A DNA stretch of 64,000 nt from an uncultured Bacilli bacterium (GTDB lineage Bacteria > Bacillota_I > Bacilli_A > RF39 > UBA660). Below the pieces are notes generated by a model. That model saw only the letters and a program-made list of their open reading frames with translations. It did no database searches and had not been told where the DNA came from. Location: NCBI GenBank assembly GCA_947628965.1, contig CANRBV010000001.1, forward strand, positions 41,225 through 105,224. Direction: 5' to 3'. Both the position numbers and the translations under genes were made by a program. Shown here one piece after another: positions 11,372 to 37,480 of this stretch; positions within the stretch are counted from its first letter, which is position 1; each line of letters starts with the position of its first letter.

Positions 11372-11378
11372 TTTATAC

Positions 11379-12293: not shown

Positions 12294-12310
12294 TAGACCA
12301 CCTAAAATAT

Positions 12311-15635: not shown

Positions 15636-15640
15636 AATAA

Positions 15641-15931
15641 TTACCCCATATTCCTTATAGCATTTATCAATTTTTTTAACATGGGAGCATTTATTACGAT
15701 ATTTTTATTATATAAATACAAATTTAGATTATCATAGCATAGCAATACTAAATATATATCATTAACCTTAATAATAAATCTATGAGGCTCTATAAAATTA
15801 ACATTTGTTTTTTCAACTTTAAATATAAAACCATTTTTAAATTCTAATTTTACATTATTAAATACACATATATTATTTAACTTATTATAAATATTCTTAT
15901 TTAATGGCATAACTTCTTTACTAAATTTCAT
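15641..15931 (-). CDS. Hypothetical protein (96 aa)
   Basis: ORF immediately downstream of Rep. Confidence 0.4.
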   Translation of the reverse strand: MKFSKEVMPLNKNIYNKLNNICVFNNVKLEFKNGFIFKVEKTNVNFIEPHRFIIKVNDIYLVLLCYDNLNLYLYNKNIVINAPMLKKLINAIRNMG

Positions 15932-15956
15932 ACTATCAAACCTTTCTTTTTAATAA

Positions 15957-15990
15957 CAAAAAAACTAGGATTTCCTATTGAAATTCCTAG
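15957..15990 (-). terminator. Rho-independent terminator downstream of tRNA-His
   Basis: ctagga..tcctag hairpin followed by a 7-T run on the minus strand. Confidence 0.5.
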
Positions 15991-16034
15991 CCTTTGCTAT
16001 AATCAAAAACCTTAAAGGTTTGATTTCCCAAATA

Positions 16035-18467: not shown

Positions 18468-18521
18468 TACTATTTTATCATAATCAAAAAAGAAGATACA
18501 AAAATTTGAACTTCTTTTTTC

Positions 18522-22740: not shown

Positions 22741-23640
22741 TTAAATTTTATTTTTTTTCTTCTTTTTAATAAGAAAATATCCACCAAGCACAAGAAGCAA
22801 AGCAACAGCAAAACTAATTAAAATGTATTTTAAATTAAAAGTTTTTGTTTCTTCTTGTTCATTTTCTTCAAGGATTTCATTTTTTTCATCTGTTTTGTTT
22901 TCTACTTCATCTTCTTTACTTACATCTGTTTCGTTTGTATTTGCATCATTATTTATAGTATTGTTGTTTTCAGTAGTAGTATTAGAACTTGCATTATTAT
23001 TAGTAGTAGTAGTACTTGTATTCTTATTCGTAGTACTCGTATTTTTATTTTCTTCTTTTTCTTTATCTTGTTCTTTATTTTTATCGGTACTAGAAGACTC
23101 CTCTTTAGAAGAAGTATCTTCCTCTTGGTTTTCACTACTATTTATTTTATAAGTAAAGTTGTTTTTTTCAACTTCAGGAGTAATTTCATGAGACTTCCAA
23201 GCATTATCTAATGTTGTTAAAGACCCACATTGAATCGTATAGGAGATATCTTTTTTACTAGAAGTATCAAATAGAATATTTCCTAGTACTAAATCTTTAT
23301 CGATATTTAATAAATTGTGACTTGTTCCTACGCCACCTGTTACTACAACAATATTTAATTCTTTTGTTTTATCATCATAAGAAGTTTTTGTAGTAAAATT
23401 ACTACTTGTTAGTTTGCTATCTAAATTCATTTTTTGAAAGTTGATATTTCCATCTACTTTTAACGTAATATCAAGTCCTCCAATAAAACCATCTTCAAAA
23501 TGTAAAACGGATTTTATATTTCCATTACCCTCTTCGTGAAAAGTTAACTTTGTTGCAGCGTTTACAGAAGAAAGAGAAAGAAATAAACTGAGTACCAAAG
23601 TGGTAACAATTTTTATAAATGTTCTTTTCATTCTCTTCAC
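22741..23640 (-). CDS. Secreted membrane-anchored surface protein: N-terminal beta-rich (possibly cohesin-like) module, S/T/N/E-rich linker, C-terminal TM anchor
   Basis: Signal peptide; about 150-aa beta-strand-type segment; low-complexity linker; C-terminal hydrophobic helix + KKKKKNKI tail; 4-nt overlap with the giant upstream gene. Confidence 0.6.
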   Translation of the reverse strand: MKRMKRTFIKIVTTLVLSLFLSLSSVNAATKLTFHEEGNGNIKSVLHFEDGFIGGLDITLKVDGNINFQKMNLDSKLTSSNFTTKTSYDDKTKELNIVVVTGGVGTSHNLLNIDKDLVLGNILFDTSSKKDISYTIQCGSLTTLDNAWKSHEITPEVEKNNFTYKINSSENQEEDTSSKEESSSTDKNKEQDKEKEENKNTSTTNKNTSTTTTNNNASSNTTTENNNTINNDANTNETDVSKEDEVENKTDEKNEILEENEQEETKTFNLKYILISFAVALLLVLGGYFLIKKKKKNKI

Positions 23641-26600
23641 CTCTTATTACTAATTTCCATTTGTTTTAACTTACTATATTCTTTTAAATCCTTTAGAACA
23701 ATTGATGTACTTGTTAATCGTTGTCCTTCATGCGTAATAGCATCATTTACACGATATAGATAAGCTCGAATACTGGTGCTAGACTTTCTCATTTTTTCGT
23801 ATTCTTCTTTACTCATAACATATAGCCACGTTCCATTTGCAACATCATAAACCGTATGATCACTATTTAATTCAGCAAAGATTAATTGATATCCGCCATA
23901 GACTTTTGCCTCATCATTACTATCTGCAATTAATACTGTATTAAACGCAGGGTTACCACGATAAGAACCTTCTATAACAACAGATCCAGCTGTAATTTTA
24001 CCATCTGGGTCGTTTTCACAACCACTTTCTAAATAACAATAATCACTTGTTAATACACCAATATTTGTAATATCGACATTATCTCCTGGAGGAGCAATCA
24101 CATCAATTTCTGCACCAGATAAAACATTATTACCATCAGATTCAATCTTAATATAATTTATATCATTATAAGTCCATAATTGACTTTCACTATCAGTATT
24201 TTGTCCCATGAAGTAAATGATTTCTTCTGGTTTTTCGCTTGTTAAAGTAAACGTACCTTTTCTTGCAAGATGCCAATCATTATCATTTCCTGTAGAACTT
24301 ACATATACTTTATATTTAGTAATTGTATTTTCATCTAGTTTATCATTTTCTACTAAGGCATGATACTTAATACCACTTACAGACATTCTATTATTTAAAT
24401 TTAATAAAACATAAGCATTTCCATTATCCACTGTAATACTTGGTTTATCACTGGTTTGATTTAAAGTTTTTACTTTTTCTGTGCCTTTAAATCCTGTTTC
24501 AATTTTACCATCAATTAAGTTGTTTACTTTTAATGTAGCATAATCCATTTCTTCGTTTTCATTATCGACAATTTCATTTGCTTCTTTTACATTTGAAGTA
24601 ATACTAAAGGCATCCTTTTTAACACTACCATCATGACTTATTTTTACTTCTTCTAAAGTAACTTCATTCGTTTTATGTAAATAATAATCATAAGCAACCA
24701 CACTATATGTATAAGCTCTATTATTTTCCGCTCCAACGTTGTCAACAAATTCATTCGTACCCTTTTCAACAAAGCCAATAGAAACACCATTACGAAGAAT
24801 TTCATAACCTAAAATCTTATCGTTGTCTTTATTAACATTAAACTCTAAAGTAACACGTTTATTTTGACTATCAGCATCTCTAATAGAAGATTCTAAAATA
24901 TTGGCACCTTCATTAATTCCAACACTTTGACGCAAAGCAAAACGTCTTGCTTGATCATTTAAGTAGTAAATCGCTCTTTTTTCTTTTGCATAGTTTAATT
25001 CTTGTAATTCTTCTTTTAAAGAGCTAGATGCTTTTAATCCCCAAATTTCAAAAAAGTTCGTTAAGTCTTTCTTGACAGCCATACAAGCATAAAGAATAGT
25101 TAAATCGTCTCTAGAATAATTTTTGGTATTCTTATATGTACGAGCAATTTTATTTATTTTTGCGTAAATTGAATTTTGATCTTCAAATGTTTTTTCATTA
25201 TCATAAGCAAGATGTAATTGCCAGTACATTCCTAACTGAACAAAAACATTTTGAGCTCTTCCCGTTGTATGGGAAGTTACTTTTTCATAAATTTTATCAT
25301 AACCATTGTTTTCTAAACGGGAAGGATCACTATCATTGCTTGTTTGAGCAAGCAAAGAATAAATATTATTCGTTACTTCTGCAAAAACAGTATCTTTTAA
25401 ATTGATTTGATGTCCAACTTCATGACTAATACCCCATCCAAAATAACCTGTTTTGGTATTACTATTGCGACTGGCTTGAACAAGGCCTGCAATTGAACCA
25501 TATTCAATGCCTATATGGTAACCTCCAGCATACATAAAAGCTCCATCAAACATTTGCATATAACGAACATTAATTCTCGCTTTTGGCATTTTATCCGTTT
25601 TTTCTGTTTGGTCTGTATCACTAAATCCTTTTTGACGATAGAATAGTTCCATCATTTCATCGAAGGCTTCCATAGATTCATATAAACGATTTGTTTTTTC
25701 TTCAATGGTTTTTTTATTTGATTTTAAAGCATCTTCTACAGCTACACTGGAAACGGACAACAAACCGTATTTTGTTACAATTTCTGTAGAGCCTAAAACA
25801 CTTTTTTGTTTATCAAAGCTTTTTCCGATAGATGCATAAGCACTTTCTAAAGTACTATTGTAATTTTCTAATTCTTTAATATATTTTTTTATTGCTGCTT
25901 TTTTATCTGTCTCATTTTCCAATAAGGTTGTATCAACCATTGGAATTTTAGTTCCTCCACTTACACGCACTTTTATTGGATTAGTAGTACTAGGTGTACT
26001 TGTATAGCGAATATAAACGCTTCCACCACGTTCATCAGTAGAAGAACCAATTTGTGGAACTGTAATAATATTTAAACCCTTATGTAAACTTTCCGTTGTA
26101 TAAGCTTTATTCCATTCACTTGCTTCAGCATGGTATTGAGTAAATATCACTTGGGCATTAATTGCCCCATTACTTCCAACATAAACATTGATTGTCTCTC
26201 CAGGTCTAGCAACAATTCCTAAAGGTTGATAATCACTAATCGTCATTGCAAATTTAACATGACCATTATACGAATTGGAAATGTTTGGATTTAGAGTAAT
26301 AACATCATCAATATGTTCATCATTTAATATTTTCTCCGCATAATCCAAATCTGCAAGTACGCTATCTTTATAAGGAGAATACTCTCCATTATCTTGTTCA
26401 TTTGCTCTTTTTCTTAATTCATTAATTTGCTTTTGATCTACGCCCTCTGCTAGGACAAGACGAAGATCGTCTGTAAATAAGGCAGCAACATCGTCCACTA
26501 ATGAATCGTAATGATAAAATTTTACTTCATCAATTTTAATATCACGAACATTTCCAGCAACAGTTAATCCAAATGCTACCGCTTTAGCAGTAATTGGATT

Positions 26601-28808
26601 TTCTAATTTTAATACATAGTATTTACGTCCCTTTTCATCTTGTTTTGAAAGAAGGGTTCCTTTTACTTCTTTACGCTCTGTATTGTCATAAATCTCTTGG
26701 TTAGACTCCCAATAATGCAATTTAACATCATTGCTATTTGGTCCACCAGATTTTAAAGAAGCCGCATAATTATCTGGAACTGTTAAGACAAATTCATCCA
26801 TTTGATAGGCATTATCTAAAACAATCACTGGGGTTCCTAAGTTGTAAGCACCATTTGCTGAAATTTGCCAATCATTATGATACCAATAAGTGTCATAATG
26901 GTCATCAACAATCGCAAATTTATTATCATTCGTCATGGTTCCCGTATGATAGAATACGTTTTCAATATGATCAGTTTTCTTATTTTTTTGATCATAACCA
27001 CTATTAATTAATTTATATTTTGGTACAATTGCAGCACCTGCTTCTTTCGTAGTTGCTTTTACTAAAGTATAACTATCACTTTCTCCTAAGTCATTTACTC
27101 CAAGTACATAAGCTTCATATTCAGTATCAGCTTTTAACCCACGTACAGAATAACTATTTGTCGAAATAGATTCTACAACAGAATAAACAGCCGTTCCAAC
27201 TTCACGATAATATAATTTATAAGATTTGGTATCGTCCATTTTTTTCCAACTAAAGTCTATTCCTCCATAGGTAGGAGTTGCAACCACCATATCTACTTTT
27301 GGTGGTTTTCTTGTTGCTTGTGGAGTTCCTTCGTGAGCATCACTCCAACCACTACGCCATTCTTGATTTACAGATTGAACGTATATATAATATGTTTCAT
27401 AATTTTTTAAATCTTCAATTGTAAAGGTTGTAAAAGTAGTTTGGAAAATAACTCCACTTTCCATTTTAGGCCCTACAATCTTAATTTCATAACCTGTTAC
27501 ATTTGGTACATCGTGAAAAGTAATAGTTAGTTGTTCACTTTTTGTATCATCAACATGAATATTTTGAGGAACATAAAATCCATCTGGTTCTTTTGTTTTT
27601 GTTTTAACATTATTTAAAAATTCTACTTTTGCTATATCTGCTAAAGTATTTGAAGAAGTTTCGGTAATTATAATAGTTACTTTTTTAACAGCAACTTGTT
27701 TTCCTAAGTCTACTTTAATTGTCCCTTCACTTGCTTCGTCTGTAAATAAATGTACTTCATTTAAACCTTGTAAAGTATCATCTACTTCATATTCAAGAGT
27801 TTCATTATCCTCTGTTAAAACGAGTAATTTCATTTTTTTAGGAATATTTTCTTCTCCTATTCCAATTCTAATTTCACTCATTTCAACAGTTTCACTATTA
27901 GAATTTTTTCCTAAATCAAGTGCAAACTCAATTGGATTATCTATAGAAATAGCTTCTTCATTTGCAGATTTTAAAGTTACAATTCCTGTATCACTAAATA
28001 AATCACTTAAATTACTTTCCTCACTAATTGTTGTTCCATTTGCTACTTCTAAAGACACATTTTCATTATTCATGATAAGACTTGTATTTTCAATTTTAGC
28101 ACTTTCTTTTTTAGAATTTAAAATTGCTGTTATGTAATTTAAATCTGCAATATCAACAACTCCATCTAAATTTAGATCATTTTTCGTGTCATTATTTTTA
28201 ATAGATTCCATTAAAATCTCTTCATCTTTTTTATTTACTTGATTGTCTTGATTTACATCACCAATTTCAAACATTCCAGCTTCATTAGATAAACTTATTC
28301 TTTTAGAAAAATCATCTAAAGTAACATCTACGCTATAGGTTACAAAATGGTTCCCGCTAAGTTCTAAAGTATACTTTCCTGTATTTAGTGAATATAAATT
28401 CATACTATAGTAAACTATATTTTCACTAGTAACGTCTCCTGATAAAACAAAACCATTCGTATTTCGTTTTGTAATTAAAGAACGGATAGTTTGTGTACCT
28501 AATTTAATAGAAGTTTCTAAAATACCATCTTTAGCGTTTTTCATTTCATTTAATGAAATAGAGGCTTTGTTATTATTTTCATCAATAATGGATAAAGCAA
28601 TATTTGTTTCTTCTCTATTTCGAAAAGGAAGAGCTAAATGAAGTTCTACTTCTATATTCCCTTTTTCTTGTATATCTCCTAAAGCAATACTACGAGTTTC
28701 TTCCCTTGTTTCCATTGCCAAAACAATTAAAGGTGAAAAATTATAAAAAAGCATTGCCCATATTAATAAGATTGATACTAGTTTATTTAAAATTTTCATA
28801 CTAACCAC
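23637..28808 (-). CDS. Giant secreted multidomain protein (1723 aa) with dockerin-like Ca-binding repeats, FN3-like modules and an M60-like/enhancin-type HExxH zinc-peptidase domain
   Basis: Signal peptide; GDVNQDNQVN...DLNLDGVVDIADL dockerin repeats; GWGISHEVGHQ zinc-binding motif. Confidence 0.7.
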   Translation of the reverse strand: MVSMKILNKLVSILLIWAMLFYNFSPLIVLAMETREETRSIALGDIQEKGNIEVELHLALPFRNREETNIALSIIDENNNKASISLNEMKNAKDGILETSIKLGTQTIRSLITKRNTNGFVLSGDVTSENIVYYSMNLYSLNTGKYTLELSGNHFVTYSVDVTLDDFSKRISLSNEAGMFEIGDVNQDNQVNKKDEEILMESIKNNDTKNDLNLDGVVDIADLNYITAILNSKKESAKIENTSLIMNNENVSLEVANGTTISEESNLSDLFSDTGIVTLKSANEEAISIDNPIEFALDLGKNSNSETVEMSEIRIGIGEENIPKKMKLLVLTEDNETLEYEVDDTLQGLNEVHLFTDEASEGTIKVDLGKQVAVKKVTIIITETSSNTLADIAKVEFLNNVKTKTKEPDGFYVPQNIHVDDTKSEQLTITFHDVPNVTGYEIKIVGPKMESGVIFQTTFTTFTIEDLKNYETYYIYVQSVNQEWRSGWSDAHEGTPQATRKPPKVDMVVATPTYGGIDFSWKKMDDTKSYKLYYREVGTAVYSVVESISTNSYSVRGLKADTEYEAYVLGVNDLGESDSYTLVKATTKEAGAAIVPKYKLINSGYDQKNKKTDHIENVFYHTGTMTNDNKFAIVDDHYDTYWYHNDWQISANGAYNLGTPVIVLDNAYQMDEFVLTVPDNYAASLKSGGPNSNDVKLHYWESNQEIYDNTERKEVKGTLLSKQDEKGRKYYVLKLENPITAKAVAFGLTVAGNVRDIKIDEVKFYHYDSLVDDVAALFTDDLRLVLAEGVDQKQINELRKRANEQDNGEYSPYKDSVLADLDYAEKILNDEHIDDVITLNPNISNSYNGHVKFAMTISDYQPLGIVARPGETINVYVGSNGAINAQVIFTQYHAEASEWNKAYTTESLHKGLNIITVPQIGSSTDERGGSVYIRYTSTPSTTNPIKVRVSGGTKIPMVDTTLLENETDKKAAIKKYIKELENYNSTLESAYASIGKSFDKQKSVLGSTEIVTKYGLLSVSSVAVEDALKSNKKTIEEKTNRLYESMEAFDEMMELFYRQKGFSDTDQTEKTDKMPKARINVRYMQMFDGAFMYAGGYHIGIEYGSIAGLVQASRNSNTKTGYFGWGISHEVGHQINLKDTVFAEVTNNIYSLLAQTSNDSDPSRLENNGYDKIYEKVTSHTTGRAQNVFVQLGMYWQLHLAYDNEKTFEDQNSIYAKINKIARTYKNTKNYSRDDLTILYACMAVKKDLTNFFEIWGLKASSSLKEELQELNYAKEKRAIYYLNDQARRFALRQSVGINEGANILESSIRDADSQNKRVTLEFNVNKDNDKILGYEILRNGVSIGFVEKGTNEFVDNVGAENNRAYTYSVVAYDYYLHKTNEVTLEEVKISHDGSVKKDAFSITSNVKEANEIVDNENEEMDYATLKVNNLIDGKIETGFKGTEKVKTLNQTSDKPSITVDNGNAYVLLNLNNRMSVSGIKYHALVENDKLDENTITKYKVYVSSTGNDNDWHLARKGTFTLTSEKPEEIIYFMGQNTDSESQLWTYNDINYIKIESDGNNVLSGAEIDVIAPPGDNVDITNIGVLTSDYCYLESGCENDPDGKITAGSVVIEGSYRGNPAFNTVLIADSNDEAKVYGGYQLIFAELNSDHTVYDVANGTWLYVMSKEEYEKMRKSSTSIRAYLYRVNDAITHEGQRLTSTSIVLKDLKEYSKLKQMEISNKR

Positions 28809-28877: not shown

Positions 28878-31163
28878 TTATCGATTTTTTTCTTTATATG
28901 ATATATCTCGTTTAATGGAATATAATTTTATTAATTGTTCATAACTTATTTGTATTACTTTTCCACCTTTAGGATTTATCTTATTTCCGAAAACAATCCA
29001 AATAACATCCATAGGAATATCAGGCATACTTGCTATTCCATCAGTAAATATTATTTTATTTTCAACTCTTTTAGTAAATGCGCGAACAGCTACATTAAAG
29101 TCAGTTCCACCATTTCCTTCAAGTCCTTCAAATCCCATATTTTCAATATCTGCTTCAGTTCTTATTTCGTGAAAGCCATAAAATTTCGTATCAAAACAGC
29201 CAACTTTTATCTTTGAGTACGGTAAGATATTTAAACATTCTCTTAAAAAATTTTTTAGCAATCTTTCATTTACAGAACCGCTTGTATCCAATAAAATTTC
29301 TGTTTCTGCCTTTGGTTGTTCTTCTAAATTAGCATGTATAACGTCGTCTTCAATATAGGCATTTTTATAAGACCAATCAACATCGTATTGAATTGGTTCT
29401 TTTAATATATATCTCCAATCTATTATCGGTTTAGATTTTCCTATATCATTTATGATTCTCTGTTCGCTATTAGTAGATGTTCCAGCTTCCATTGCTTCTT
29501 GAGATACAGTTTCTATTGCTTGTTGAGATAAAACTTGCTTTAATTCTTCTAATTCTTTTCTCTTTTCTTCTAAATTTTTTTTAAAAGCGCTTTTCTCGCC
29601 CATTTTACTAATTTTGCCTATCTCTTGTTGTAATCTTTTTTCTTGTTGATTTTGTTCTTCCATTTGTTGCTCATCATCTTGAAATTCTTTTTTATCTTTT
29701 GATTCAGCTTCTTTTAGTTTTTTTACTGCATCTTTCCACATACTATGAGTATCATGACCTACATCATCATTTTGTTCTTCAGAAGGAATTGATTCTGATG
29801 AAGAAGTTCCTTGCCCTTGTGATTGATTTTCATTTTGATTTTGAGATTCATCTAAAGAACTTTGGGATTGATCTTGTGATCTTTGTTCAGATGTGCCCTG
29901 TTGATTTTGTGATGAACTTGTTTGTTCCTCACTTTTCTCTTCATTTTGTTCATTAGATTGAGATTCTTTTTTATTTTTTGATACAGCTTCTTTTAATTTT
30001 TTTACTGCATCTTTCCACATACTATGAGTATCATGACTTACATTATCATTTTGTTCTTCAGAAGGAATTGATTCTGATGAAGAAGTTCCTTGCCCTTGTG
30101 ATTGATTTTCATTTTGATTTTGAGATTCATCTAAAGAACTTTGGGATTGATCTTGTGATCTTTGTTCAGATGTGCCCTGTTGATTTTGTGATGAACTTGT
30201 TTGTTCCTCACTTTTCTCTTCATTTTGTTCATTAGATTGAGATTCTTTTTTATTTTTTGATACAGCTTCTTTTAATTTTTTTACTGCATCTTTCCACATA
30301 CTATGAGTATCATGACTTACATTATCATTTTGTTCTTCAGAAGGAATTGATTCTGATGAAGAAGTTCCTTGCCCTTGACCTTGTTGTCCTTGTTTAGAAG
30401 ATGATGAACTTTGTTGATTTTGTTGTGAATTGGATTGTTCTTGATTTTGTTCTTCATTTTGAGTTTCAGAATTTTGCCCTTGTGATTGATTTTCGTTTTG
30501 TTTTTGAGAACCTTTTGAAGAACTTTGCCCTTGACCTTGTTGCCCTTGTTTAGAAGATGATGAACTTTGTTGATTTTGTTGTGAATTGGATTGTTCTTGA
30601 TTTTGTTCTTCATTTTGAGTTTCAGAATTTTGCCCTTGTGATTGATTTTCGTTTTGTTTTTGAGAATCTTTTGAAGAATTTTGCCCTTGATCTTGTTGTC
30701 CTTGTTCAGAAGATGATGAACTTTGTTGATTTTGTTGATTACCTTGACCATTTTGTCTTTTACTTTGTTGCTTTTCTTTAAGTAATTTATCATAAAACTC
30801 TTCTGCATCGTAATTTATTGCTTCTGCAATATCTACTACACCATCAACAAGTTTCAACCCATCTCGTTTTAAAAATTGATTTATTACACCATCTGTTGCT
30901 ATATTCCAAACATAAGGATCTTTATTTTCACTTCTTCTTATATGATCAAACGCTATATGGCATACCTCATGAGCAAATATAAAAATTTGTTCATCTGTGT
31001 TAAGATTTTTTAAAAATTCTAGATTATAAAATATCGTTTGTCCATCAGTACATGCAGTTGATATTTTTTTATTCTCTCTATAGTTTACATTTGCAACTAC
31101 ACTCCCAAAGAAAGGGTATTTTACAAGCATTTTTCTTTTTACAGATTCAATATTAAAGTCCAT
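28878..31163 (-). CDS. HExxH metallopeptidase-like N-domain + long Q/S/N/E-rich repeat region + C-terminal vWA domain (COG3864/DUF2201-like, MoxR partner)
   Basis: FIFAHEVCHIAFDH (HExxH); C-terminal LLDTSGS MIDAS (DxSxS) motif; sits with a MoxR-like AAA ATPase. Confidence 0.7.
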   Translation of the reverse strand: MDFNIESVKRKMLVKYPFFGSVVANVNYRENKKISTACTDGQTIFYNLEFLKNLNTDEQIFIFAHEVCHIAFDHIRRSENKDPYVWNIATDGVINQFLKRDGLKLVDGVVDIAEAINYDAEEFYDKLLKEKQQSKRQNGQGNQQNQQSSSSSEQGQQDQGQNSSKDSQKQNENQSQGQNSETQNEEQNQEQSNSQQNQQSSSSSKQGQQGQGQSSSKGSQKQNENQSQGQNSETQNEEQNQEQSNSQQNQQSSSSSKQGQQGQGQGTSSSESIPSEEQNDNVSHDTHSMWKDAVKKLKEAVSKNKKESQSNEQNEEKSEEQTSSSQNQQGTSEQRSQDQSQSSLDESQNQNENQSQGQGTSSSESIPSEEQNDNVSHDTHSMWKDAVKKLKEAVSKNKKESQSNEQNEEKSEEQTSSSQNQQGTSEQRSQDQSQSSLDESQNQNENQSQGQGTSSSESIPSEEQNDDVGHDTHSMWKDAVKKLKEAESKDKKEFQDDEQQMEEQNQQEKRLQQEIGKISKMGEKSAFKKNLEEKRKELEELKQVLSQQAIETVSQEAMEAGTSTNSEQRIINDIGKSKPIIDWRYILKEPIQYDVDWSYKNAYIEDDVIHANLEEQPKAETEILLDTSGSVNERLLKNFLRECLNILPYSKIKVGCFDTKFYGFHEIRTEADIENMGFEGLEGNGGTDFNVAVRAFTKRVENKIIFTDGIASMPDIPMDVIWIVFGNKINPKGGKVIQISYEQLIKLYSIKRDISYKEKNR
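29690..30790. repeat. Intragenic near-identical tandem repeats: 3 x 279 nt (about 29690-30370) and about 2.7 x 156 nt (about 30370-30790)
   Basis: Read in the DNA (gatacagcttcttttaatttttttactgcatctttccacatactatgag... at 29701/29980/30259; ccttgaccttgttg[t/c]ccttgtttagaag at 30373/30529/30685). Identical antisense ORFs offset by 279 nt in the track. Confidence 0.9.
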
Positions 31164-31173
31164 AATTTATTCC

Positions 31174-31569
31174 TCAAATATGAGCAACTAATGAATAAAT
31201 TTCTTCATTAATTGTTTCTTTATTTATATTTGTAGCTGTTAAAATGATTCTTGTGTTTTCTGGTATTTTAAATGTGGACACTTGTCTATACTCTAATAAT
31301 TCTTTAAATTTTAATTGCTCTTCTTTAGAGATACTATCAATATCTTTTATAACTATTATTTTAGCTTCATTTGTATTAGTTAAATCATAATACCATTTAG
31401 GAGCTAGGAAATCTACTCCCTCATAATAACCATTCAATTCTTTTGTTTCACAATTTGCTGGTATTATTACAGATTTTGGAATACTGATATTAGATGCAAA
31501 ATCAATAAGAATAGGAGCAACATTAATTGAAAGATAACTGTTTAACATATTCATTTTATCATTATTCAT
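31174..31569 (-). CDS. Hypothetical 131-aa protein, middle gene of the ATPase/vWA operon
   Basis: 4-nt overlap with the upstream ATPase gene; 10-nt gap to the vWA gene. Confidence 0.55.
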   Translation of the reverse strand: MNNDKMNMLNSYLSINVAPILIDFASNISIPKSVIIPANCETKELNGYYEGVDFLAPKWYYDLTNTNEAKIIVIKDIDSISKEEQLKFKELLEYRQVSTFKIPENTRIILTATNINKETINEEIYSLVAHI

Positions 31570-33494
31570 TTTTTTCTACCTCCCGCAGCAAGTCTGGCTT
31601 CAGCAATTAATTCTAGTCTAGATTCATCACCATGTGACCATAACGAATCAAATATTGCCCCAAACTCCGCTCCTAGACTTATTACGAAACTTCTTACTTT
31701 TGCCATATTTTTTTCGTCAACTTGAGAAAGACCCATTGTCGTAGCATATCTGGAGGCAGTATTTAATGATTGTATGTCTAGTCCACTATAGGTTCCATTT
31801 ATTACATCATTTAACGTTATAACTGGTTGATTGCAGAACTCTAAAAATTCTCTAGTTATATCTTCTCCCACTAAAGCTCTTAACATTCCTGGGCTTCCAG
31901 TAGCGTAAAGCATTTTAGAAGCCATTTCCCATTTTCTAGGATCAGCATTTGGCTTTACACCATTATATTGACTTCTTAATACTGCACCTTTTCTATAAGC
32001 TATATAGGAATAAATTGCAGGATGAATATTATGTTCACTTGCCCATTTTAACCATCCATCCGTTGTTGTTCTGATATATACATGTGCAAATCTATTAAAT
32101 AATGGTTCGGCTAATTGATTTGCTGATAAGGAATCTTTCATCTCATTACCAGCAGCAACTATTCTTGCATTATCTGGTAGTTGCCATATTCCATTTACTT
32201 CTCTATCCAAAATAATGTTAAAAGCTATTCCTTGAATACTAGGCAAAGCATTTGTTATCTCATCAAAGAAAACGATATGTAATTTATCAGGTTCTGCCTC
32301 ACATTTAGCTTCTAATTTTTTTAACCATGTAGGTTTTATATCAATCATTTCACCTTTTTCAGAATTATAAGCACTTTTTCCATTTAAACTTTCAGGTGTT
32401 GCATTTCTTAAATATATAATGACACAATCAGGGTCAATTTGTTTTACTCTTGCGCTTTTTCCTTCACTTGAAGCACCATGTAAAAATACAGGCACTCTAC
32501 TTGCAATTGCACCTTTAATAATTTCTTCTTCACTGACTTGTCCAAAATTAAATCCATAGGGATTGTTTTTTTCACTTCTTTCTGAATATTGATAAGAAGT
32601 ATTTTTTACTTTTTCAATTTCTTTTTGGTGCTGATTAGAAGTTTTGCCAGAATTTGCTTGTATCACTTTAGTTTTACTTGATACTATATCTCTTACAAAA
32701 TAAGTATTTAAAAAATCATACATATCTGTGCTGGTCCAATCAGAATCAGAATAAAAATAACCATCTTTATTAAATCTTATTCCCGATGCAATTATATTTT
32801 TGCTTAACATAACCTTTTTAAAATTATCAACATACCATTTAAGTGGAGATACCTCTATCCAAACAATATCTCCATTTTTATATTGTTCTCCATTTGAAAG
32901 TAAAGAAACACGTGGATTTCTATTATACACTCTTACATATTTTCTTCCATTATATTCAAATTCCTCATTTTTCATTGGGTAAAATCTTGTCAGTTTATCA
33001 TCGCATTTGATGGAATCCGTTGTATATGTTTTTCCAGTTTTTTTTAATATTGTACCAGATTGATATGCTTGTTCCAAATCATATTCCATAGATGAACTAA
33101 CGACATATTGTGGATATTCTCCATACTCTATTTCTACAAACCTATGTGGTAGTATTCTCGTTATTCCATTTGAAGAGTTAGATTGGTGAACGTCTAATAT
33201 AGTTGGGCGAACTCCATTTGTCCTAGTTCCAGCAGAAAATTTACTGATAGAACCATTTATATCAACAGCAAGTGGATTTCCTTGTCCATCAGAGCTCATT
33301 AAATTGTAATTACCTGTGTGCCCTTTTAAAGAATTATCATAATTTACATAAACATCTTCAGAAACGAAACCTCCTAATAATATAGCAAAATCTGTTATTG
33401 CACACTTTGCACCCATATTTTTTTTAATCATTCCATTAAAATCATAAATTTGTTCTGCATTAAGTAATGTAATTTCACCACTACCAAAATTCAT
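31566..33494 (-). CDS. MoxR-like AAA ATPase with an uncharacterised ~320-aa N-terminal domain
   Basis: Walker A GASSEGKS; Walker B IVFFDEITNA; AAGNE sensor region; no recognisable motif in the N-terminal half. Confidence 0.65.
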   Translation of the reverse strand: MNFGSGEITLLNAEQIYDFNGMIKKNMGAKCAITDFAILLGGFVSEDVYVNYDNSLKGHTGNYNLMSSDGQGNPLAVDINGSISKFSAGTRTNGVRPTILDVHQSNSSNGITRILPHRFVEIEYGEYPQYVVSSSMEYDLEQAYQSGTILKKTGKTYTTDSIKCDDKLTRFYPMKNEEFEYNGRKYVRVYNRNPRVSLLSNGEQYKNGDIVWIEVSPLKWYVDNFKKVMLSKNIIASGIRFNKDGYFYSDSDWTSTDMYDFLNTYFVRDIVSSKTKVIQANSGKTSNQHQKEIEKVKNTSYQYSERSEKNNPYGFNFGQVSEEEIIKGAIASRVPVFLHGASSEGKSARVKQIDPDCVIIYLRNATPESLNGKSAYNSEKGEMIDIKPTWLKKLEAKCEAEPDKLHIVFFDEITNALPSIQGIAFNIILDREVNGIWQLPDNARIVAAGNEMKDSLSANQLAEPLFNRFAHVYIRTTTDGWLKWASEHNIHPAIYSYIAYRKGAVLRSQYNGVKPNADPRKWEMASKMLYATGSPGMLRALVGEDITREFLEFCNQPVITLNDVINGTYSGLDIQSLNTASRYATTMGLSQVDEKNMAKVRSFVISLGAEFGAIFDSLWSHGDESRLELIAEARLAAGGRKK

Positions 33495-33804
33495 ATTTCA
33501 CCTCGTTCGCATATCATTTACATATATTTTACCATAAAATATTTAATAATAATATGTCAAAAAGTATAGTTTACAAAAATAAAGTAAAATATAGGAAATA
33601 AAATTAAAATTGACTTGATTTATGATTTTTTTGTTCTTCTTTATTTTTGAATAAAACTAAAATCTCGTTAATAACTATATTTTTATTGTGTAAATTTCAA
33701 ATTCTGTATCATTCTATTTATGATGTTACTAAAAAATACACAAAAAAATGTTATATCGGTATTTATTGATATAACATTTTAAGTGTTTAGTTTAAAGCAT
33801 TCTA

Positions 33805-36177
33805 TTATTTATCTCTTAATTTTGCTTTAAATGTTTCTTCTACTTTTTTTATTATTGCATTAAAAACTTCCATTACTTCTTCTTCTTGTAAAGTTCTTGT
33901 TTCATCTTTAAAGGTTAATTTATAAGCAATAGATTTTTTACCCTTTTCTATTTCAGGATATAAATCAAATACTTCACAAGTTGATAATATTCTTTTTCCC
34001 GTGTGAACAATTTCTTTTTTAATGCTTTCACTATCAATTTCGTTCGCTACAATAAAAGCTACATCTTTTACAATTTCTGGATATTTATTTGCTTCTTTAT
34101 ATTTTATAGGTTTAATACTTGCTTGATCTAAAATATTCATAGAAAGTTCACAAACAAAAAGTTCTTCTTTTAAAATATTTGGGTGTATTTTACCAATAAT
34201 ACCTACTCTTTTCTTATCTAGATAAATACTTGCACTAACTCCTGGATGTAAGGAATCTATTTCTTCACTTACAAAAGAAAAACGATTTTTAAAACCTAAG
34301 TAGGTAAGTAAGTTTTCAACTATTCCTTTTAATAAATAAAAGTCTGCTTTAATATTTATTCTTTGCCATTCATTTGTTAGATAGTTTCCTTTCATTAAAA
34401 TTGCTATTTTTGTTGTTTCATTAAAATCTTTATCATAAGTTTTAGCAATTTCATAAATATTGACATCCTTAACGTTTCTCTTTTTATTATATTCGTAGGT
34501 ATTTAATAAAGAGGGTAAAATGCTTGTACGAATAATACTTTTATCAACACTCATTGCATTTGGTAAAGTAATTGGTTCTTTTTGATCATAACAAAATAAT
34601 TTAGCCATTTCAGGACTAATTAAGGTATATGTTTTTACTTCGTTTAAACCAAGTGTTCTTAAACGTTTAGAAATTTCTTTTCGTATTTTAACATCTCCAA
34701 CATATTCTCCCATTCTAGTACTGGCAGTAGGCAAAGTAGAAATTAAGTTATGATAACCATAAAGTCTTCCAATTTCTTCAGCAATGTCGTTTACATTTGC
34801 ATCAATATCTAATCTCCTACTTGGAATTGTTACCATAAATACATCTTTTTCTAAAGTATAAGGAAAACCTAAACGATCCAATTCTTTTTCCATATCTTTT
34901 GTTTCAATAACTATACCAAGCATTTTATTTACATCTTCGGCTTTAAAATTAACTATTTTTGGTGTTTTATCGATTACATCATGTTTTACAGTATCCTTTA
35001 GTATAGTTGCATTAGCGTATTTTTCAAGTAAATGACAAGCTCGGTTAATAGCCATATTTGTATACTCATAACTTAAACCTTTTCCATAGCGAATAGATGC
35101 TTCGCTTTTTAAATTCAAATGACTTGCTGTATTTCGAATAGAAACAGCATCAAAAATTGCACTTTCTATTAAGATTGTTTTCGTATTTTCATCAACTTCA
35201 GTATTTTCTCCCCCCATAACTCCAGCGATACAAACTGGTTTATCGCCATCGGTAATTACAATATCGCTTGATTTTAAAGTTCTCTTTTTACCATCCAAAG
35301 TAACAATTTGTTCGTTTTCCTTAGCATCACGTACTAAAATATGATCTTTTAATTTCTCCTTATCAAAAAAATGAAGAGGTTGTCCAAATTCAAGCATAAC
35401 ATAGTTAGAAATATCAACAACATTATTAATTGGGCGCATTCCAGCAGCAGTAAGTCTTTTTTTAATAAATTCTGGACTTTCTTTAATTTCAACATTTGTT
35501 ACCATTTTGGCAAGATAATAAGGGCATTTTTTAGTTTCGACTTCTAATTTAAAATGATTTTTTATAGAATCACTATTTTCTTTATATTCTAGATTTGGTA
35601 ATGTTACTTTTTTATTTAGAATAGAAGCAATTTCATATGCGAAACCAATATGATAAAAACAATCATTATTACGATGTTTATGAATATCTAGTTCATACAA
35701 AGTATCATCATAACCTAAATATTTTAGTGCATCTACACCAACTGATGCTTTATTATCAACTTCATAAATTCCTTTTTGATAATTTTCTTCTGTTTTTTCT
35801 TCTAGTCCTAATTCAAATAAAGCGCAAAGCATACCATTGGATTCTACCCCACGAATTGTACTCTTTTTTATTTCAAAATCTCCAGGAAGTATTGCTCCTG
35901 GCAAAGCAACAATCACTTTTAAACCTGCTTTTACATTTGGGGCTCCACATACAATTTGGTAAGTCTCTTTTTCATTTACTTTTACTTGGCAAATATGCAA
36001 ATGGTCGCTATCTGGATGCGGTAGACATTCTAAAACTTCTCCAATTACTAAATGATCAATATGGTTCGTTATTACTTTTTCTACATTAATTCCAGCTTTC
36101 GTAATTTTTACTGCTAATTCTTTTAAATCCTCATCTTTAATATCTACATAATCACTTACCCACTCTAAACTAATCAT
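33805..36177 (-). CDS. pheT: Phenylalanine--tRNA ligase beta subunit
   Basis: MISLEWVSDYVD N-terminus; tRNA-binding, B3/4, B5 and FDX-ACB layout; follows pheS. Confidence 0.9.
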   Translation of the reverse strand: MISLEWVSDYVDIKDEDLKELAVKITKAGINVEKVITNHIDHLVIGEVLECLPHPDSDHLHICQVKVNEKETYQIVCGAPNVKAGLKVIVALPGAILPGDFEIKKSTIRGVESNGMLCALFELGLEEKTEENYQKGIYEVDNKASVGVDALKYLGYDDTLYELDIHKHRNNDCFYHIGFAYEIASILNKKVTLPNLEYKENSDSIKNHFKLEVETKKCPYYLAKMVTNVEIKESPEFIKKRLTAAGMRPINNVVDISNYVMLEFGQPLHFFDKEKLKDHILVRDAKENEQIVTLDGKKRTLKSSDIVITDGDKPVCIAGVMGGENTEVDENTKTILIESAIFDAVSIRNTASHLNLKSEASIRYGKGLSYEYTNMAINRACHLLEKYANATILKDTVKHDVIDKTPKIVNFKAEDVNKMLGIVIETKDMEKELDRLGFPYTLEKDVFMVTIPSRRLDIDANVNDIAEEIGRLYGYHNLISTLPTASTRMGEYVGDVKIRKEISKRLRTLGLNEVKTYTLISPEMAKLFCYDQKEPITLPNAMSVDKSIIRTSILPSLLNTYEYNKKRNVKDVNIYEIAKTYDKDFNETTKIAILMKGNYLTNEWQRINIKADFYLLKGIVENLLTYLGFKNRFSFVSEEIDSLHPGVSASIYLDKKRVGIIGKIHPNILKEELFVCELSMNILDQASIKPIKYKEANKYPEIVKDVAFIVANEIDSESIKKEIVHTGKRILSTCEVFDLYPEIEKGKKSIAYKLTFKDETRTLQEEEVMEVFNAIIKKVEETFKAKLRDK

Positions 36178-37222
36178 TATTTTTCTCCCTTCTATCAAAA
36201 TCTCTTATTTCTCTTAAATCAGTTTGATAAAATGTGCGAATATCACTAATGCCATATTTAAGCATTGCAAGTCGTTCTGCTCCAAAACCAAATGCAAAAC
36301 CACTCCATATATTTGGATCATAGCCACAATTTTTCAAAACATTAGGATGTACAATTCCAGCACCACTTACTGTAATCCATCCTGTATTTTTACATAAAGA
36401 ACAACCTTTTCCTTTGCAAGCAAAGCAAGAAATATCTGTTTCTACAGAAGGCTCGGTAAATTGGTAATAACTTGGTCTAAAGCGAACTTCACAACTTGAA
36501 CCAAATAATTTTTTAAAAATAGCATCCATTGTACCTTTTAAATCTGAAAGACTAACATTTTTATCGACAAGCAAACCTTCAATTTGCATAAATTGATGCG
36601 AATGGGTTGCATCATCATCATCTCTACGATACGTTTTTCCAGGGCAAATCATACGAATTGGCTTATCTCCACCCGCTTTAAGCATGGTTCTTGCTTGCAC
36701 TGGAGAAGTTTGACTACGCAACAAAATTTCTTCTTCTTTTATATAAAATGTATCTTGAGCATCTCTTGCAGGATGACCCTTTGGTATATTTAACAATTCA
36801 AAATTAAAACGATCTTCCTCTATTTCTGGTCCATCCACTACATCATAGCCCATAGACATACAAATATTTTCTATTTCTTCAATAATGTGTTCTAAGATAT
36901 TAGGTGCACCTAAAGGTATCTTTACTCCTGGTAAAGTAATATCAATTTTTTCCTTTTCCAACTTTTCTTTAATTTCTAAATCCTCATAATACCTTATTTT
37001 TTCTTCAATTTGAGAAGTAATTTCATTTTTTAAATCATTTAATATTTTTCCAAATTCTCTTTTCTCTTCATTATTTAATTCTTTTAAATGCATTGTTAAT
37101 TCATTAATAGGGCCTTTTTTTCCTAAATATAAAATTTTTAACTCATTCACTTCTTTTAAATTTGTTGCTTTTTCAATATTTGTTAAAGCTTGTTCTTTTA
37201 ATTTTTTTACTTTTTCATTCAT
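36170..37222 (-). CDS. pheS: Phenylalanine--tRNA ligase alpha subunit
   Basis: Class II aaRS motifs (HPARD, FRPSYYQFTEPS, GFAFGFGAERLAML); start set at MNEKVKK with GGAGG RBS. The longer track ORF runs through the leader terminator. Confidence 0.9.
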   Translation of the reverse strand: MNEKVKKLKEQALTNIEKATNLKEVNELKILYLGKKGPINELTMHLKELNNEEKREFGKILNDLKNEITSQIEEKIRYYEDLEIKEKLEKEKIDITLPGVKIPLGAPNILEHIIEEIENICMSMGYDVVDGPEIEEDRFNFELLNIPKGHPARDAQDTFYIKEEEILLRSQTSPVQARTMLKAGGDKPIRMICPGKTYRRDDDDATHSHQFMQIEGLLVDKNVSLSDLKGTMDAIFKKLFGSSCEVRFRPSYYQFTEPSVETDISCFACKGKGCSLCKNTGWITVSGAGIVHPNVLKNCGYDPNIWSGFAFGFGAERLAMLKYGISDIRTFYQTDLREIRDFDRREKNND

Positions 37223-37239
37223 TTTTTCTTCCTCCTTAA

Positions 37240-37480
37240 AATTAAAAAAGCCCCTTACAAATGTAAGGGACGAAATATAATCCGCGGTACCACCCAAATT
37301 CTAGAAATTTTCTAGCACTTATTTTAGATTTAACGCATCTGTACGATAAAATTAAAGCAAGTGAATTTCGCATTTATTCTTTATCTTTAGATAGTTTCAG
37401 CGTACCCTATCTAATCTCTGTTTGAAGATAGAATAAATCTACTTAAAATTGCTCTCAAACATTTTATTGAGTTTATTATA
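37240..37480 (-). promoter_or_regulatory. T-box riboswitch leader of pheST with intrinsic terminator (37244-37269)
   Basis: T-box conserved sequence AAUUUGGGUGGUACCGCGG on the minus strand (37282-37300); followed by cccuuaca-uuu-uguaaggg hairpin + U-run; ends immediately 5' of pheS. Confidence 0.8.

What the first reader, a model, noticed from the sequence alone, without database searches (positions are those of the whole stretch)
28878..33494. Three-gene MoxR-like AAA ATPase / small protein / HExxH-peptidase-vWA locus with unusual extra modules: candidate uncharacterised NTP-dependent conflict (defence) system
**Components**
- ATPase (642 aa), co-directional and overlapping the next gene by 4 nt. 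Its MoxR-type AAA core (GASSEGKS / IVFFDEITNA) occupies only the C-terminal half. The N-terminal ~320 aa have no motif I recognise.
- 131-aa protein of unknown function.
- 761-aa protein. It has an N-terminal HExxH metallopeptidase-like domain (FAHEVCHIAFDH) and a C-terminal vWA domain (DTSGS MIDAS). The two domains are separated by about 370 aa of Q/S/N/E-rich disordered sequence built from near-identical tandem repeats.

**Why it matters**
- MoxR + vWA (+ peptidase) gene sets were predicted computationally (Aravind-group vWA-MoxR systems) to be regulated, diversifying biological-conflict systems. To my knowledge none has been dissected experimentally.
- The N-terminally extended ATPase, the small middle gene and the repeat-expanded linker look like lineage-specific elaborations.

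**Context**
- The locus sits directly upstream of pheST, not inside an obvious MGE.
Basis: partly seen in the sequence, partly recalled or inferred. Interest (0 to 1): 0.82.

Follow-up and report, generated by a model that had tools for sequence, protein, structure and literature searches.

The report
DGR-less lectin–MoxR ATPase/protease module
The three genes are real and belong to a widespread, mobile gut-Firmicute cassette in which a lectin-like binding domain fused to a MoxR ATPase is hypermutated by a retroelement in many relatives (not here) and works with a dead-ATPase partner and a zinc-protease/vWA protein, which points to a programmable protein-recognition (conflict) machine that has never been tested.

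Summary
Three co-directional minus-strand ORFs of 642, 131 and 761 aa carry intact Walker A/B, HExxH and MIDAS motifs, and two in-frame tandem arrays.

The two "unknown" parts now have identities:
- **ATPase N-terminus (about 275 aa):** a DUF6273-like, C-type-lectin-type domain.
- **131-aa protein:** a catalytically dead paralogue of the ATPase's own AAA+ core. It is predicted to dock on the ATPase's nucleotide-site face.

In at least 17 related loci the same gene trio is preceded by bAvd, a template repeat and a reverse transcriptase. The variable repeat lies at codons ~67-105 of the ATPase, and mismatches fall almost only at template adenines. That is a diversity-generating retroelement (DGR) aimed at the lectin domain. 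Near-identical metagenomic copies vary only in that segment.

The window's copy has no RT and no template repeat, and it sits in a DGR-free clade.

The cassette is patchy (6 of 30 congeners). It occurs in an integrative conjugative element (ICE), beside a prophage lysis module, and between housekeeping genes.

Best reading: an accessory, cytoplasmic recognition–ATPase–protease conflict system, here with fixed specificity. A defence role is inferred, not shown. It is a new variant of the known MoxR–vWA / DGR–lectin theme.

The parts
31566..33494 (-). Gene for the 642-aa fusion protein: an N-terminal DUF6273-like (C-type-lectin-type) domain, a linker, and a MoxR-type AAA+ ATPase with a helical C-terminal region.
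   Evidence: ORF and translation. PHROG 1297 ATPase 1.2e-43 over residues 324-611. Full-length homologues.
32670..33494 (-). Lectin-like recognition domain, residues ~1-275. It is built as [DUF6273 C-terminal-half-like segment, 1-105] followed by [EYGEYPQ...W.V segment, 117-275].
   Evidence: Model pLDDT 83.8. AFDB hits to DUF6273 proteins (probability 1.0). Atlas TM 0.67 to an LRR_5+DUF6273 cluster. Best PDB row is the DUF6273 N-terminal domain of T. ramosa IgA peptidase, Z 4.0: and PMC12402451. PF19789 on some homologues. This region is 44-56% identical among homologues whose AAA part is 83-89% identical.
33179..33296 (-). Segment equivalent to the DGR variable repeat of relatives (codons ~67-105, ending in the GVRP motif). 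Here there is no matching template repeat.
   Evidence: VR position in relatives is nt ~199-316 of the gene. Aligned to VR/TR of L023 and L106. No TR in the window or genome.
31566..32534 (-). AAA+ module, residues ~321-642. Features: Walker A G340-S347, Walker B D411/E412, putative sensor-1 N450, putative Arg finger R468, lid with R520.
   Evidence: Invariant columns. Atlas neighbours are AAA_5/AAA_3 'MoxR family' clusters, many viral. 682 phage records carry relatives annotated as MoxR-like ATPase.
31174..31569 (-). Gene for the 131-aa pseudo-AAA+ protein. It is a paralogue of the ATPase alpha/beta core without a P-loop. Walker B DE has become KD, and Leu stands at the Arg-finger position.
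   Evidence: hhalign A1 vs A2: probability 91.9%, E 6.9e-7, 125 columns. Model pLDDT 88. Foldseek top hits NorQ, CbbQ2, Rea1, dynein, MCM (E from 2.8e-5, probability 1.00). Predicted docking on the ATPase: ipSAE 0.83 against best control 0.00.
28878..31163 (-). Gene for the 761-aa DUF2201-family protein: an HExxH zinc peptidase, a polar repeat linker, and a vWA domain with MIDAS.
   Evidence: Pfam PF13203 2.3e-34 and PF09967 6.1e-10. PHROG 1314 5.5e-60. The peptidase part resembles the minigluzincin selecase MJ1213 (E 4e-4). Motif conservation.
29679..30737 (-). Two adjoining in-frame tandem arrays (279 nt x 2.5 at 29679-30377; 156 nt x 2.4 at 30369-30737). They lengthen the polar linker to ~396 aa.
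   Evidence: Family range is 381-761 aa, median 485, with the window the longest of 71. Contigs fragment here.
28929..29366 (-). vWA domain with MIDAS (D626-x-S628-x-S630 ... T707-D708).
33531..33560 (-). Promoter-like site (TTGACA-18-TATGGT) about 37 nt upstream of the ATPase start, in the 310-nt AT-rich spacer after pheT.
   Evidence: The consensus match count is not above shuffles, so this is weak. Spacer sequence.

Best explanation
The locus encodes a cytoplasmic three-protein recognition–ATPase–protease machine of a mobile accessory family.

**Components**
1. The 642-aa protein joins a lectin-like ligand-binding domain to a MoxR-type AAA+ motor. In many relatives a DGR (bAvd, template repeat, reverse transcriptase) sits directly upstream and rewrites about 35 codons of that domain. 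The domain is therefore the specificity determinant.
2. The 131-aa protein is a dead copy of the motor's own AAA+ core. It is predicted to occupy the neighbouring-protomer position on the ATP-site face. Without an arginine finger it probably caps or gates ring assembly and hydrolysis.
3. The 761-aa protein supplies a MIDAS vWA adaptor, the usual MoxR partner, tethered by a long flexible polar linker to an HExxH zinc peptidase, the likely effector.

**Inferred working cycle**
The lectin domain captures a variable cytoplasmic target, most plausibly a phage or mobile-element protein (or, when the cassette rides on an element, a host immunity protein). ATP-driven remodelling then couples this to cleavage by the vWA-tethered peptidase.

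**Status in this genome**
The retroelement is missing, so specificity is frozen. All catalytic motifs and frames are intact.

**Shown versus inferred**
- Shown: domain identities, the DGR link in relatives, hypervariability, mobility, and motif conservation.
- Inferred: target identity, direction of the conflict (defence or counter-defence), the order of events, and the regulatory role of the pseudo-AAA protein.
For: **DGR link**
- L023: the TR (8581-8680) and the VR (10215-10314, inside the ATPase gene) differ at 12 sites, 11 of them TR adenines.
- The same layout occurs in at least 17 loci: 16 in the script survey plus L106. Several of the 16 have adenine-only mismatches (for example 12/12, 10/10, 14/14).
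- RVT_1 and bAvd Pfam hits confirm the upstream genes.
- In 31 copies that are 98.2% identical elsewhere, entropy is 1.16 bits at residues 81-100, against 0.21 or less in every other 20-column block.

**Lectin-like fold**
-.
- PF19789 on some homologues.
- DUF6273 is a known C-lectin-type DGR target (PMC10743442).

**Pseudo-AAA protein**
-.
- Docking: ipSAE 0.83 against best control 0.00; 102-104 contacts; runs agree at 98% or more; partner pLDDT 89. This mark was reached by 51 of 78 solved complexes and 2 of 108 mismatched pairs.
- The interface covers the P-loop (341-347), Walker B (411-412) and the lid (510-541).

**Peptidase and vWA conserved**
- HExxH in 72 of 78 loci; MIDAS in 75 of 75.

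**Accessory and mobile**
- 6 of 30 congeners carry it.
- Members within one genus fall in deeply separate clades, and the DGR label needs at least 9 changes on well-supported branches.
- Contexts: ICE cargo; beside a prophage lysis module; between rpsR and rpmE in the closest relative.

**Conceptual precedent**
- MoxR-vWA systems with DGR-diversified lectin domains (PMC7159879, PMC10907252).
Against: - No experiment exists on any member.
- No PADLOC system hit.
- The window copy lacks RT and TR. Diversification, the strongest argument for a conflict role, does not operate here.
- Close relatives of the ATPase/DUF2201 pair sit among replication genes of lytic N4-like and jumbo phages. There a virion-assembly or maturation role has been proposed (PMC7824862).
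- Structural matches of the N-terminal domain to solved structures are weak (best Z 4.0).
- The docking pass could reflect the model's memory of generic AAA+ ring interfaces.
- The Clostridia branch works without the small gene.
Confidence: 0.55

Rival explanations
1. It is phage-derived cargo that serves a mobile element rather than the cell. Either it acts as a virion or particle assembly and maturation chaperone-protease, as proposed for jumbo phages. Or it is a counter-defence weapon that an ICE or prophage uses to bind and destroy host immunity proteins. In the window it would be a stranded or domesticated copy.
For: - 682 phage records encode relatives of the ATPase.
- The N4-like phage nACB1 has MoxR ATPase, a 137-aa ORF and a DUF2201 protein in the same order, next to a helicase.
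- PHROG hits are strong.
- The cassette occurs beside a lysis module in an IMG/VR contig and inside an ICE.
- Iyer et al. 2021 proposed assembly plus proteolytic processing (PMC7824862).
Against: - Only 1 IMG/VR contig carries the lectin-fused form, against 292 hits in species genomes.
- No other locus shares L106's phage genes.
- The window and its closest relative are flanked by housekeeping genes.
- A hypermutated cytoplasmic binding domain has no obvious use in assembling one's own virion.
- The counter-defence version is not excluded. It differs from the best explanation only in who benefits.
Confidence: 0.25
2. It is a cellular MoxR-vWA maturation chaperone of the NorQ/NorD, CbbQ/CbbO or RavA/ViaA type. 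It would service one specific client complex, with the peptidase processing that client.
For: - The small protein's model best matches NorQ and CbbQ2.
- A MoxR plus MIDAS-vWA pairing is the hallmark of such chaperones.
- In the window the locus lies between housekeeping-type genes.
Against: - Distribution within the genus is patchy.
- The genomic position is not conserved.
- The ATPase's own N-terminal domain is a DGR target.
- No conserved client gene lies nearby: the M60 peptidase and pheST are not linked to the trio in most of the other loci surveyed (pheST lies upstream in only L033 and L063; M60 in none).
Confidence: 0.08
3. In this genome the trio is a decaying relic. The retroelement has been lost, and the runaway repeat expansion in the peptidase-vWA linker marks relaxed selection.
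For: - No RT or TR.
- RT fragments in 8 related loci show that decay of the cassette is common.
- The window has the longest linker of 71 family members.
Against: - All three frames are intact.
- Walker A/B, HExxH and MIDAS are preserved.
- The AAA module is 89% identical to the nearest relative.
- The repeats are in frame and lie in a region that varies in length across the whole family.
- A whole supported clade of 15 loci persists without a DGR.
Confidence: 0.12

Closest known systems
Phage-type MoxR AAA+ plus metallopeptidase-vWA (DUF2201_N/DUF2201) pair, noted in group 2.2 jumbo phages (Iyer et al. 2021, PMC7824862) and present in N4-like phages
   Same: - The two core families are the same: PHROG 1297 and 1314, and Pfam PF13203 + PF09967.
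- The gene order is the same.
- In phage nACB1 a ~135-aa ORF also lies between the two genes.
   Different: - The phage ATPases are about 330-375 aa, with no lectin-like N-terminal domain and no DGR.
- The phage middle ORF is not detectably related to the pseudo-AAA protein.
- The window copy is chromosomal, and its linker is far longer.
vWA-MoxR ternary conflict systems with DGR-diversified FGS/C-lectin domains (Kaur et al. 2020, PMC7159879; Doré et al. 2024, PMC10907252)
   Same: - A MoxR ATPase, a vWA-MIDAS protein, a peptidase activity and a DGR-hypermutated lectin-fold domain occur in one cytoplasmic gene cluster.
- The proposed logic is sensor, then NTPase, then effector.
   Different: - There the lectin domain is fused to the vWA protein (C-terminal VR) and a separate VMAP or iSTAND component is present. 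Here it is fused to the N-terminus of the MoxR ATPase, with the VR near the 5' end.
- Here the peptidase is an HExxH domain on the vWA protein, and there is a pseudo-AAA subunit.
- No VMAP-like gene is seen among the three.
- Those systems are enriched in multicellular cyanobacteria, actinobacteria and Chromatiales. These carriers are small-genome gut Bacilli and some Clostridia.
C-lectin + AAA ATPase DGR targets of CPR bacteria and DPANN archaea (Paul et al. 2017, as cited in PMC10907252)
   Same: A DGR variable lectin-fold domain is fused to an AAA ATPase in organisms with reduced genomes.
   Different: - I could not read that paper's architectures here.
- Its RT clades are reported as distinct and its hosts are different.
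- No DUF2201 partner or pseudo-AAA subunit is mentioned in the text I read.
NorQ-NorD and CbbQ-CbbO MoxR/vWA chaperones
   Same: - An AAA+ MoxR ring works with a MIDAS vWA partner.
- The best structural matches of the 131-aa protein are NorQ and CbbQ2.
   Different: - Those are conserved maturation factors next to their client enzymes.
- They have no peptidase, no lectin domain, no DGR and no dead-protomer subunit.
DUF6273 DGR targets of gut phages (tentaclins; Faecalibacterium prophages: PMC10743442, PMC11792537)
   Same: - The same lectin-type domain family serves as a DGR variable region.
[quoted passage not shown]
   Different: Those are tail or receptor-binding proteins with Ig/FN3 domains. 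Here the domain is fused to a cytoplasmic ATPase.

Membership tests
MoxR-class AAA+ ATPase (Pfam AAA_5 / AAA_3) | Walker A GxxxxGK[ST] and Walker B hhhhDE | tested here: met
   G340-S347 and IVFFDE 407-412 are invariant in 21 homologues.
MoxR-class AAA+ ATPase (Pfam AAA_5 / AAA_3) | Profile score above the curated cut-off | tested here: inconclusive
   The window protein scores AAA_5 17.5 bits against a 22-bit cut-off. Relatives L015 and L016 score 24.2 and 26.7 bits. PHROG 1297 gives 1.2e-43. Atlas neighbours carry AAA_5/AAA_3 and include a 'putative MoxR family ATPase' cluster. There is no PDB sequence hit.
MoxR-class AAA+ ATPase (Pfam AAA_5 / AAA_3) | Adjacent vWA protein with an intact MIDAS | tested here: met
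   DTSGS...TDG is present in the 761-aa protein and conserved in 75 of 75 loci.
MoxR-class AAA+ ATPase (Pfam AAA_5 / AAA_3) | Helix-2 insert and pre-sensor-1 hairpin; hexameric ring | not tested
DUF2201 metallopeptidase-vWA family | PF13203 and PF09967 both above threshold, with HExxH and MIDAS | tested here: met
   119.7 and 39.7 bits. H65-E66-x-x-H69...H74 and D626/S628/S630 are present.
DUF6273 / C-type-lectin-fold DGR variable domain | Sequence-profile match to PF19789 | tested here: not met
   Residues 1-330 give no PF19789 hit even at E up to 1. Four of the 120 listed homologues carry a precomputed PF19789 hit.
DUF6273 / C-type-lectin-fold DGR variable domain | Fold similarity to DUF6273 or C-lectin structures | tested here: inconclusive
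   AFDB DUF6273 entries hit at E 3e-3 with probability 1.0. Atlas TM is 0.67 to an LRR_5+DUF6273 cluster. The best PDB row, Z 4.0, is the DUF6273 N-terminal domain of T. ramosa IgA peptidase. Classical C-lectins reach only Z 2.3-3.0. Foldseek against PDB finds nothing.
Diversity-generating retroelement target | Cognate TR with adenine-specific mismatches, plus RT and Avd | tested here: not met
   In the window: no RVT_1 in the genome, which is 91% complete, and no TR. The feature is met in at least 17 related loci.
vWA-MoxR ternary systems (VMAP / iSTAND / beta-propeller; Kaur et al. 2020) | A third VMAP, iSTAND or beta-propeller component, and a bpMoxR-type ATPase | tested here: inconclusive
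   The window ATPase gives no bpMoxR (PF20030) hit. The third gene is a pseudo-AAA protein, not a propeller. VMAP profiles were not available to me.
Catalogued anti-phage defence systems (PADLOC-DB v2) | A match of any component to a defence-system model | tested here: not met
   The only hit is a stray 0.0013 match to ThsB over 50 residues. The other two proteins give none.
AAA+ fold (131-aa protein) | Homology to an AAA+ alpha/beta core | tested here: met
   hhalign probability 91.9%, E 6.9e-7 against the neighbouring ATPase. 99 PDB chains hit at E 1e-3 or better, and all 50 rows shown are AAA+ proteins.
AAA+ fold (131-aa protein) | Catalytic motifs (P-loop, Walker B acidic pair, Arg finger) | tested here: not met
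   The P-loop segment is deleted. DE has become KD or DK. Leu or Phe stands at the position aligned to R468 in all 27 family members.

The most novel reading that the evidence does not exclude
The family would be a retroelement-programmable intracellular targeting protease. A DGR continually rewrites the lectin-like "antibody" domain of a MoxR motor, so that the cell (or the ICE or prophage carrying it) can capture ever-changing invader or immunity proteins and hand them to a vWA-tethered zinc peptidase. A dead-protomer subunit would set the activation threshold. That would be an anticipatory, protein-level immune mechanism in unicellular, genome-reduced gut bacteria. The window copy would be a naturally "fixed-specificity" allele, useful for finding the ligand.
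Probability: 0.35. Interest if true: 0.88.

Novelty: new variant of a known kind. Interest (0 to 1): 0.7.

Why it matters
- **Untested systems.** MoxR–vWA conflict systems and cellular DGR targets are both predicted but, to my knowledge, experimentally untested. Nothing in the papers read here reports an experimental test.
- **Compact and tractable.** This family joins the two in 3-5 genes. It is abundant in animal and human gut metagenomes, and it is actively diversifying in nature. It is also present in at least one cultured organism, Zhenpiania hominis BX12, as a two-gene form.
- **Testable hypotheses.**
  - The lectin domain sets specificity.
  - The dead AAA+ protomer regulates the motor.
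  - The peptidase is the effector.
- **Wider implication.** If a conflict role is confirmed, DGR-based anticipatory recognition would extend from multicellular bacteria to tiny-genome gut commensals and their mobile elements.
- **Possible application.** It would also offer a natural scaffold for programmable intracellular protein targeting.
- **Limits of this locus.** On its own, the window's locus is a DGR-less member. Its interest comes mainly from what the family reveals.

Tried and rejected
- **Foldseek of the N-terminal model against PDB:** no match at E 1e-3 or better.
- **PDB sequence search with the ATPase profile:** nothing at E 0.01 or better.
- **PDB sequence search with the small-protein profile:** only chance-level hits.
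- **NCBIfam:** nothing meaningful for any of the three proteins.
- **PADLOC:** no system.
- **Phage middle ORF:** hhalign of the small-protein family against the N4-like phage ORF gave no relation (probability 0.3%).
- **TR remnant:** none found in the 310-nt spacer or elsewhere in the genome.
- **RT in the genome:** none, at 91% completeness.
- **General prophage context:** rejected. L106's tail, holin and lysin genes match no other locus. Only one IMG/VR contig carries the fusion.
- **Linkage to the M60 peptidase or pheST:** M60 is next to the trio in no other surveyed locus, and pheST lies upstream in only two (L033, L063), so neither is a system component.
- **Terminator scan:** none called.
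- **Promoter-like hits:** not above shuffles.
- **RNA runs:** no RNA holder listed for the stretch.
- **Repeat arrays in public contigs:** Logan contigs do not span the arrays, so copy number is unverified.
- **Literature searches:** no paper in the held library describes a DGR aimed at a MoxR ATPase with a DUF2201 partner. Most subscription-journal papers are missing from the held library, and I did not read Paul et al. 2017, so absence is not proven.

Full report
**What is in the window**

Three minus-strand ORFs occupy 33494..31566 (642 aa), 31569..31174 (131 aa, 4-nt overlap) and 31163..28878 (761 aa). They follow pheS (37297..36170) and pheT (36198..33805) after a 310-nt AT-rich spacer. 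They precede a 1723-aa M60/enhancin-like peptidase gene. In the direction of transcription the trio is therefore downstream of pheST.

The genome is a 1.23-Mb, ~27% GC, 91%-complete assembly. It comes from rabbit gut. Relatives are labelled "uncultured Bacilli", "Tenericutes", Coprobacillus sp. CAG:605 and Clostridium sp. CAG:417.

**The 761-aa protein**

- It is a clear DUF2201-family member: DUF2201_N at 2.3e-34 and DUF2201 vWA-like at 6.1e-10, and PHROG 1314 at 5.5e-60.
- HExxH...H is kept in 72 of 78 related loci. MIDAS DxSxS plus TDG is kept in 75 of 75.
- The peptidase part resembles the minimal gluzincin selecase (E 4e-4).
- Its extra length comes from two in-frame tandem arrays, 279 nt x 2.5 and 156 nt x 2.4. 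These lie in a polar linker that varies in length across the family.
- Family proteins run from 381 to 761 aa with a median of 485. The window's is the longest of 71.
- The 93-aa unit re-copies a conserved DxHSxW motif.
- Public contigs break in the arrays, so copy number is unverified.

**The ATPase**

- Residues ~321-642 carry invariant Walker A/B, N450, R468 and R520.
- This region matches PHROG 1297 (1.2e-43) and phage proteins annotated as MoxR-like ATPase in 682 records.
- Its atlas neighbours are AAA_5/AAA_3 clusters.
- Pfam AAA_5 is sub-threshold for this copy but passes in relatives.

**The ATPase N-terminal domain**

- Residues ~1-275 fold confidently (pLDDT 83.8).
- The model resembles DUF6273 proteins in AFDB and the ESM Atlas.
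- The best PDB row, which is weak at Z 4.0, is the DUF6273 N-terminal domain of the Thomasclavelia ramosa IgA peptidase (PMC12402451).
- Some homologues carry PF19789.
- DUF6273 is a C-type-lectin-like domain known as a DGR target in gut phages (PMC10743442).

**The 131-aa protein**

- Its family aligns to the ATPase core (residues 324-472) with hhalign probability 91.9% and E 6.9e-7.
- Its model (pLDDT 88) hits NorQ, CbbQ2, Rea1, dynein, MCM and Lon.
- The P-loop is deleted. Walker B DE has become KD or DK. The residue aligned with R468 is Leu or Phe in all 27 members.
- Docking on the ATPase module scores ipSAE 0.83 against 0.00 for the best control, with 102-104 contacts. Runs agree at 98% or more, and partner pLDDT is 89. 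That mark was reached by 51 of 78 solved complexes and 2 of 108 mismatched pairs.
- The interface covers the P-loop, Walker B and the lid, which is the canonical neighbouring-protomer position.
- Because AAA+ rings are well represented among solved structures, this pass shows a likeness to such interfaces. It is not proof of binding.

**The key finding from relatives**

The trio keeps its order in five congeners, but with other flanks. In a 60%-identical homologue an RVT_1 gene lies 90 nt upstream. A 100-nt repeat pairs the spacer before that RT with codons ~72-105 of the ATPase. Of 12 mismatches, 11 are at template adenines.

I surveyed 75 species-representative loci plus six others. A bAvd–TR–RT–ATPase–pseudoAAA–DUF2201 cassette occurs in at least 17 loci, counting L106 from the separate viral scan. 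Several have adenine-only mismatches (12/12, 10/10, 14/14). Pfam confirms RVT_1 and bAvd. Eight further loci retain only RT fragments, and about 40 have none.

Thirty-one metagenomic copies are 98.2% identical outside the VR. They show entropy of 1.16 bits at residues 81-100, against 0.21 or less in every other 20-column block. The DGR is therefore active in natural populations. Three loci even carry in-frame stops inside the VR.

Across species, the whole lectin region is 44-56% identical where the AAA module is 83-89% identical.

**The window copy**

- It has no RT in the genome and no TR.
- On the AAA-domain tree it falls in a supported clade of 15 loci (100/99) with no DGR. DGR-bearing loci are scattered elsewhere, and at least 9 changes are forced by well-supported branches.
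- Its specificity is therefore presumably fixed.

**Mobility**

- The ATPase was found in 6 of 30 same-genus genomes and 9 of 61 relatives.
- Congeners carry members of deeply separate clades.
- Four contexts were seen:
  - an ICE with TrbL, PrgI, VirB4-like, CHAP, PemK and two serine recombinases;
  - a position just after tail, holin and endolysin genes in the single IMG/VR hit;
  - between rpsF-ssb-rpsR and rpmE in the closest relative;
  - after pheST in the window, L033 and L063.
- The Clostridia branch, including cultured Zhenpiania hominis BX12, has a two-gene form without the small gene.

**Interpretation**

Domain identities, the DGR link, hypervariability, motif conservation and mobility are shown. 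The rest is inference by analogy. The analogies are to MoxR–vWA systems with DGR-diversified lectin domains (PMC7159879, PMC10907252) and to MoxR–vWA chaperones. On that basis I infer that the lectin domain captures a variable cytoplasmic target, and that the motor, gated by the dead protomer, couples this capture to the vWA-tethered peptidase.

Whether the system defends the cell or arms the mobile element is open. A virion-assembly role proposed for the lectin-less phage pair (PMC7824862) is a live rival for the ancestral function. It fits the DGR-targeted cellular form poorly. PADLOC has no model for the system. I found no description of this cassette in the searchable literature.

**Verdict**

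- The conflict-system interpretation is partly supported, and sharpened.
- The "lineage-specific elaboration" claim is rejected except for the repeat expansion.
- Novelty: a new variant of a known kind.

Noticed in passing
window 8969-16000: A low-GC tract (20-24% GC, GC skew down to -0.5). It encodes a 564-aa large serine recombinase, a 196-aa resolvase, a Macro-domain protein, a zinc-ribbon protein and unknowns. It is probably an integrated mobile element, about 13 kb from the trio and separate from it.
   Followed up: partly
window 23637-28808 (-): A 1723-aa protein with M60/enhancin-like peptidase, M60-like_N and FN3 domains, a candidate mucin-degrading enzyme. It lies directly downstream of the trio but is not linked to it in any other locus.
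   Followed up: partly
L014 ~7457, L076 ~7253, L082 ~7172 (within the VR): In-frame stop codons lie inside the DGR variable repeat of three DGR-bearing relatives. This suggests that mutagenic homing sometimes produces null alleles, or split genes, that reach consensus in a population.
   Followed up: partly
L067, L069, L072, L081, L083, L102 (upstream 1.5-3.7 kb of the ATPase gene): Long (230-450 nt) 75-100% identical matches to the 5' part of the ATPase gene lie upstream. These indicate tandem paralogous copies of the ATPase or of its lectin domain in some genomes.
   Followed up: no
L093 2335-5339 (Zhenpiania hominis BX12): A cultured Clostridia isolate carries a two-gene version: a 602-aa lectin-ATPase overlapping a 399-aa DUF2201 protein. 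It has no pseudo-AAA gene and no DGR. This is a possible experimental entry point.
   Followed up: partly
L018 3968-6751 (Acinetobacter phage nACB1): This N4-like phage has MoxR ATPase (374 aa), an unrelated 137-aa ORF and a DUF2201 protein (404 aa) in the same order, next to an AAA ATPase and a helicase. A small middle gene may be a recurrent feature of the pair.
   Followed up: partly
L108 1-21893: A DGR-bearing cassette is embedded in a conjugative element. It lies between T4SS genes (TrbL_2, PrgI, VirB4-like, CHAP) and a PemK toxin plus two large serine recombinases.
   Followed up: partly
window 17523-19889 (-): A 314-aa AAA protein with weak TniB/nSTAND3 similarity lies next to a 455-aa HAAS-domain protein. 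It is another small NTPase pair of unclear role.
   Followed up: no
window 33741-33778 (-): By eye, an AT-rich inverted repeat followed by a T-run lies just after the pheT stop. It would fit a terminator separating pheST from the trio. The scan tool requires 3 GC pairs and did not call it.
   Followed up: no
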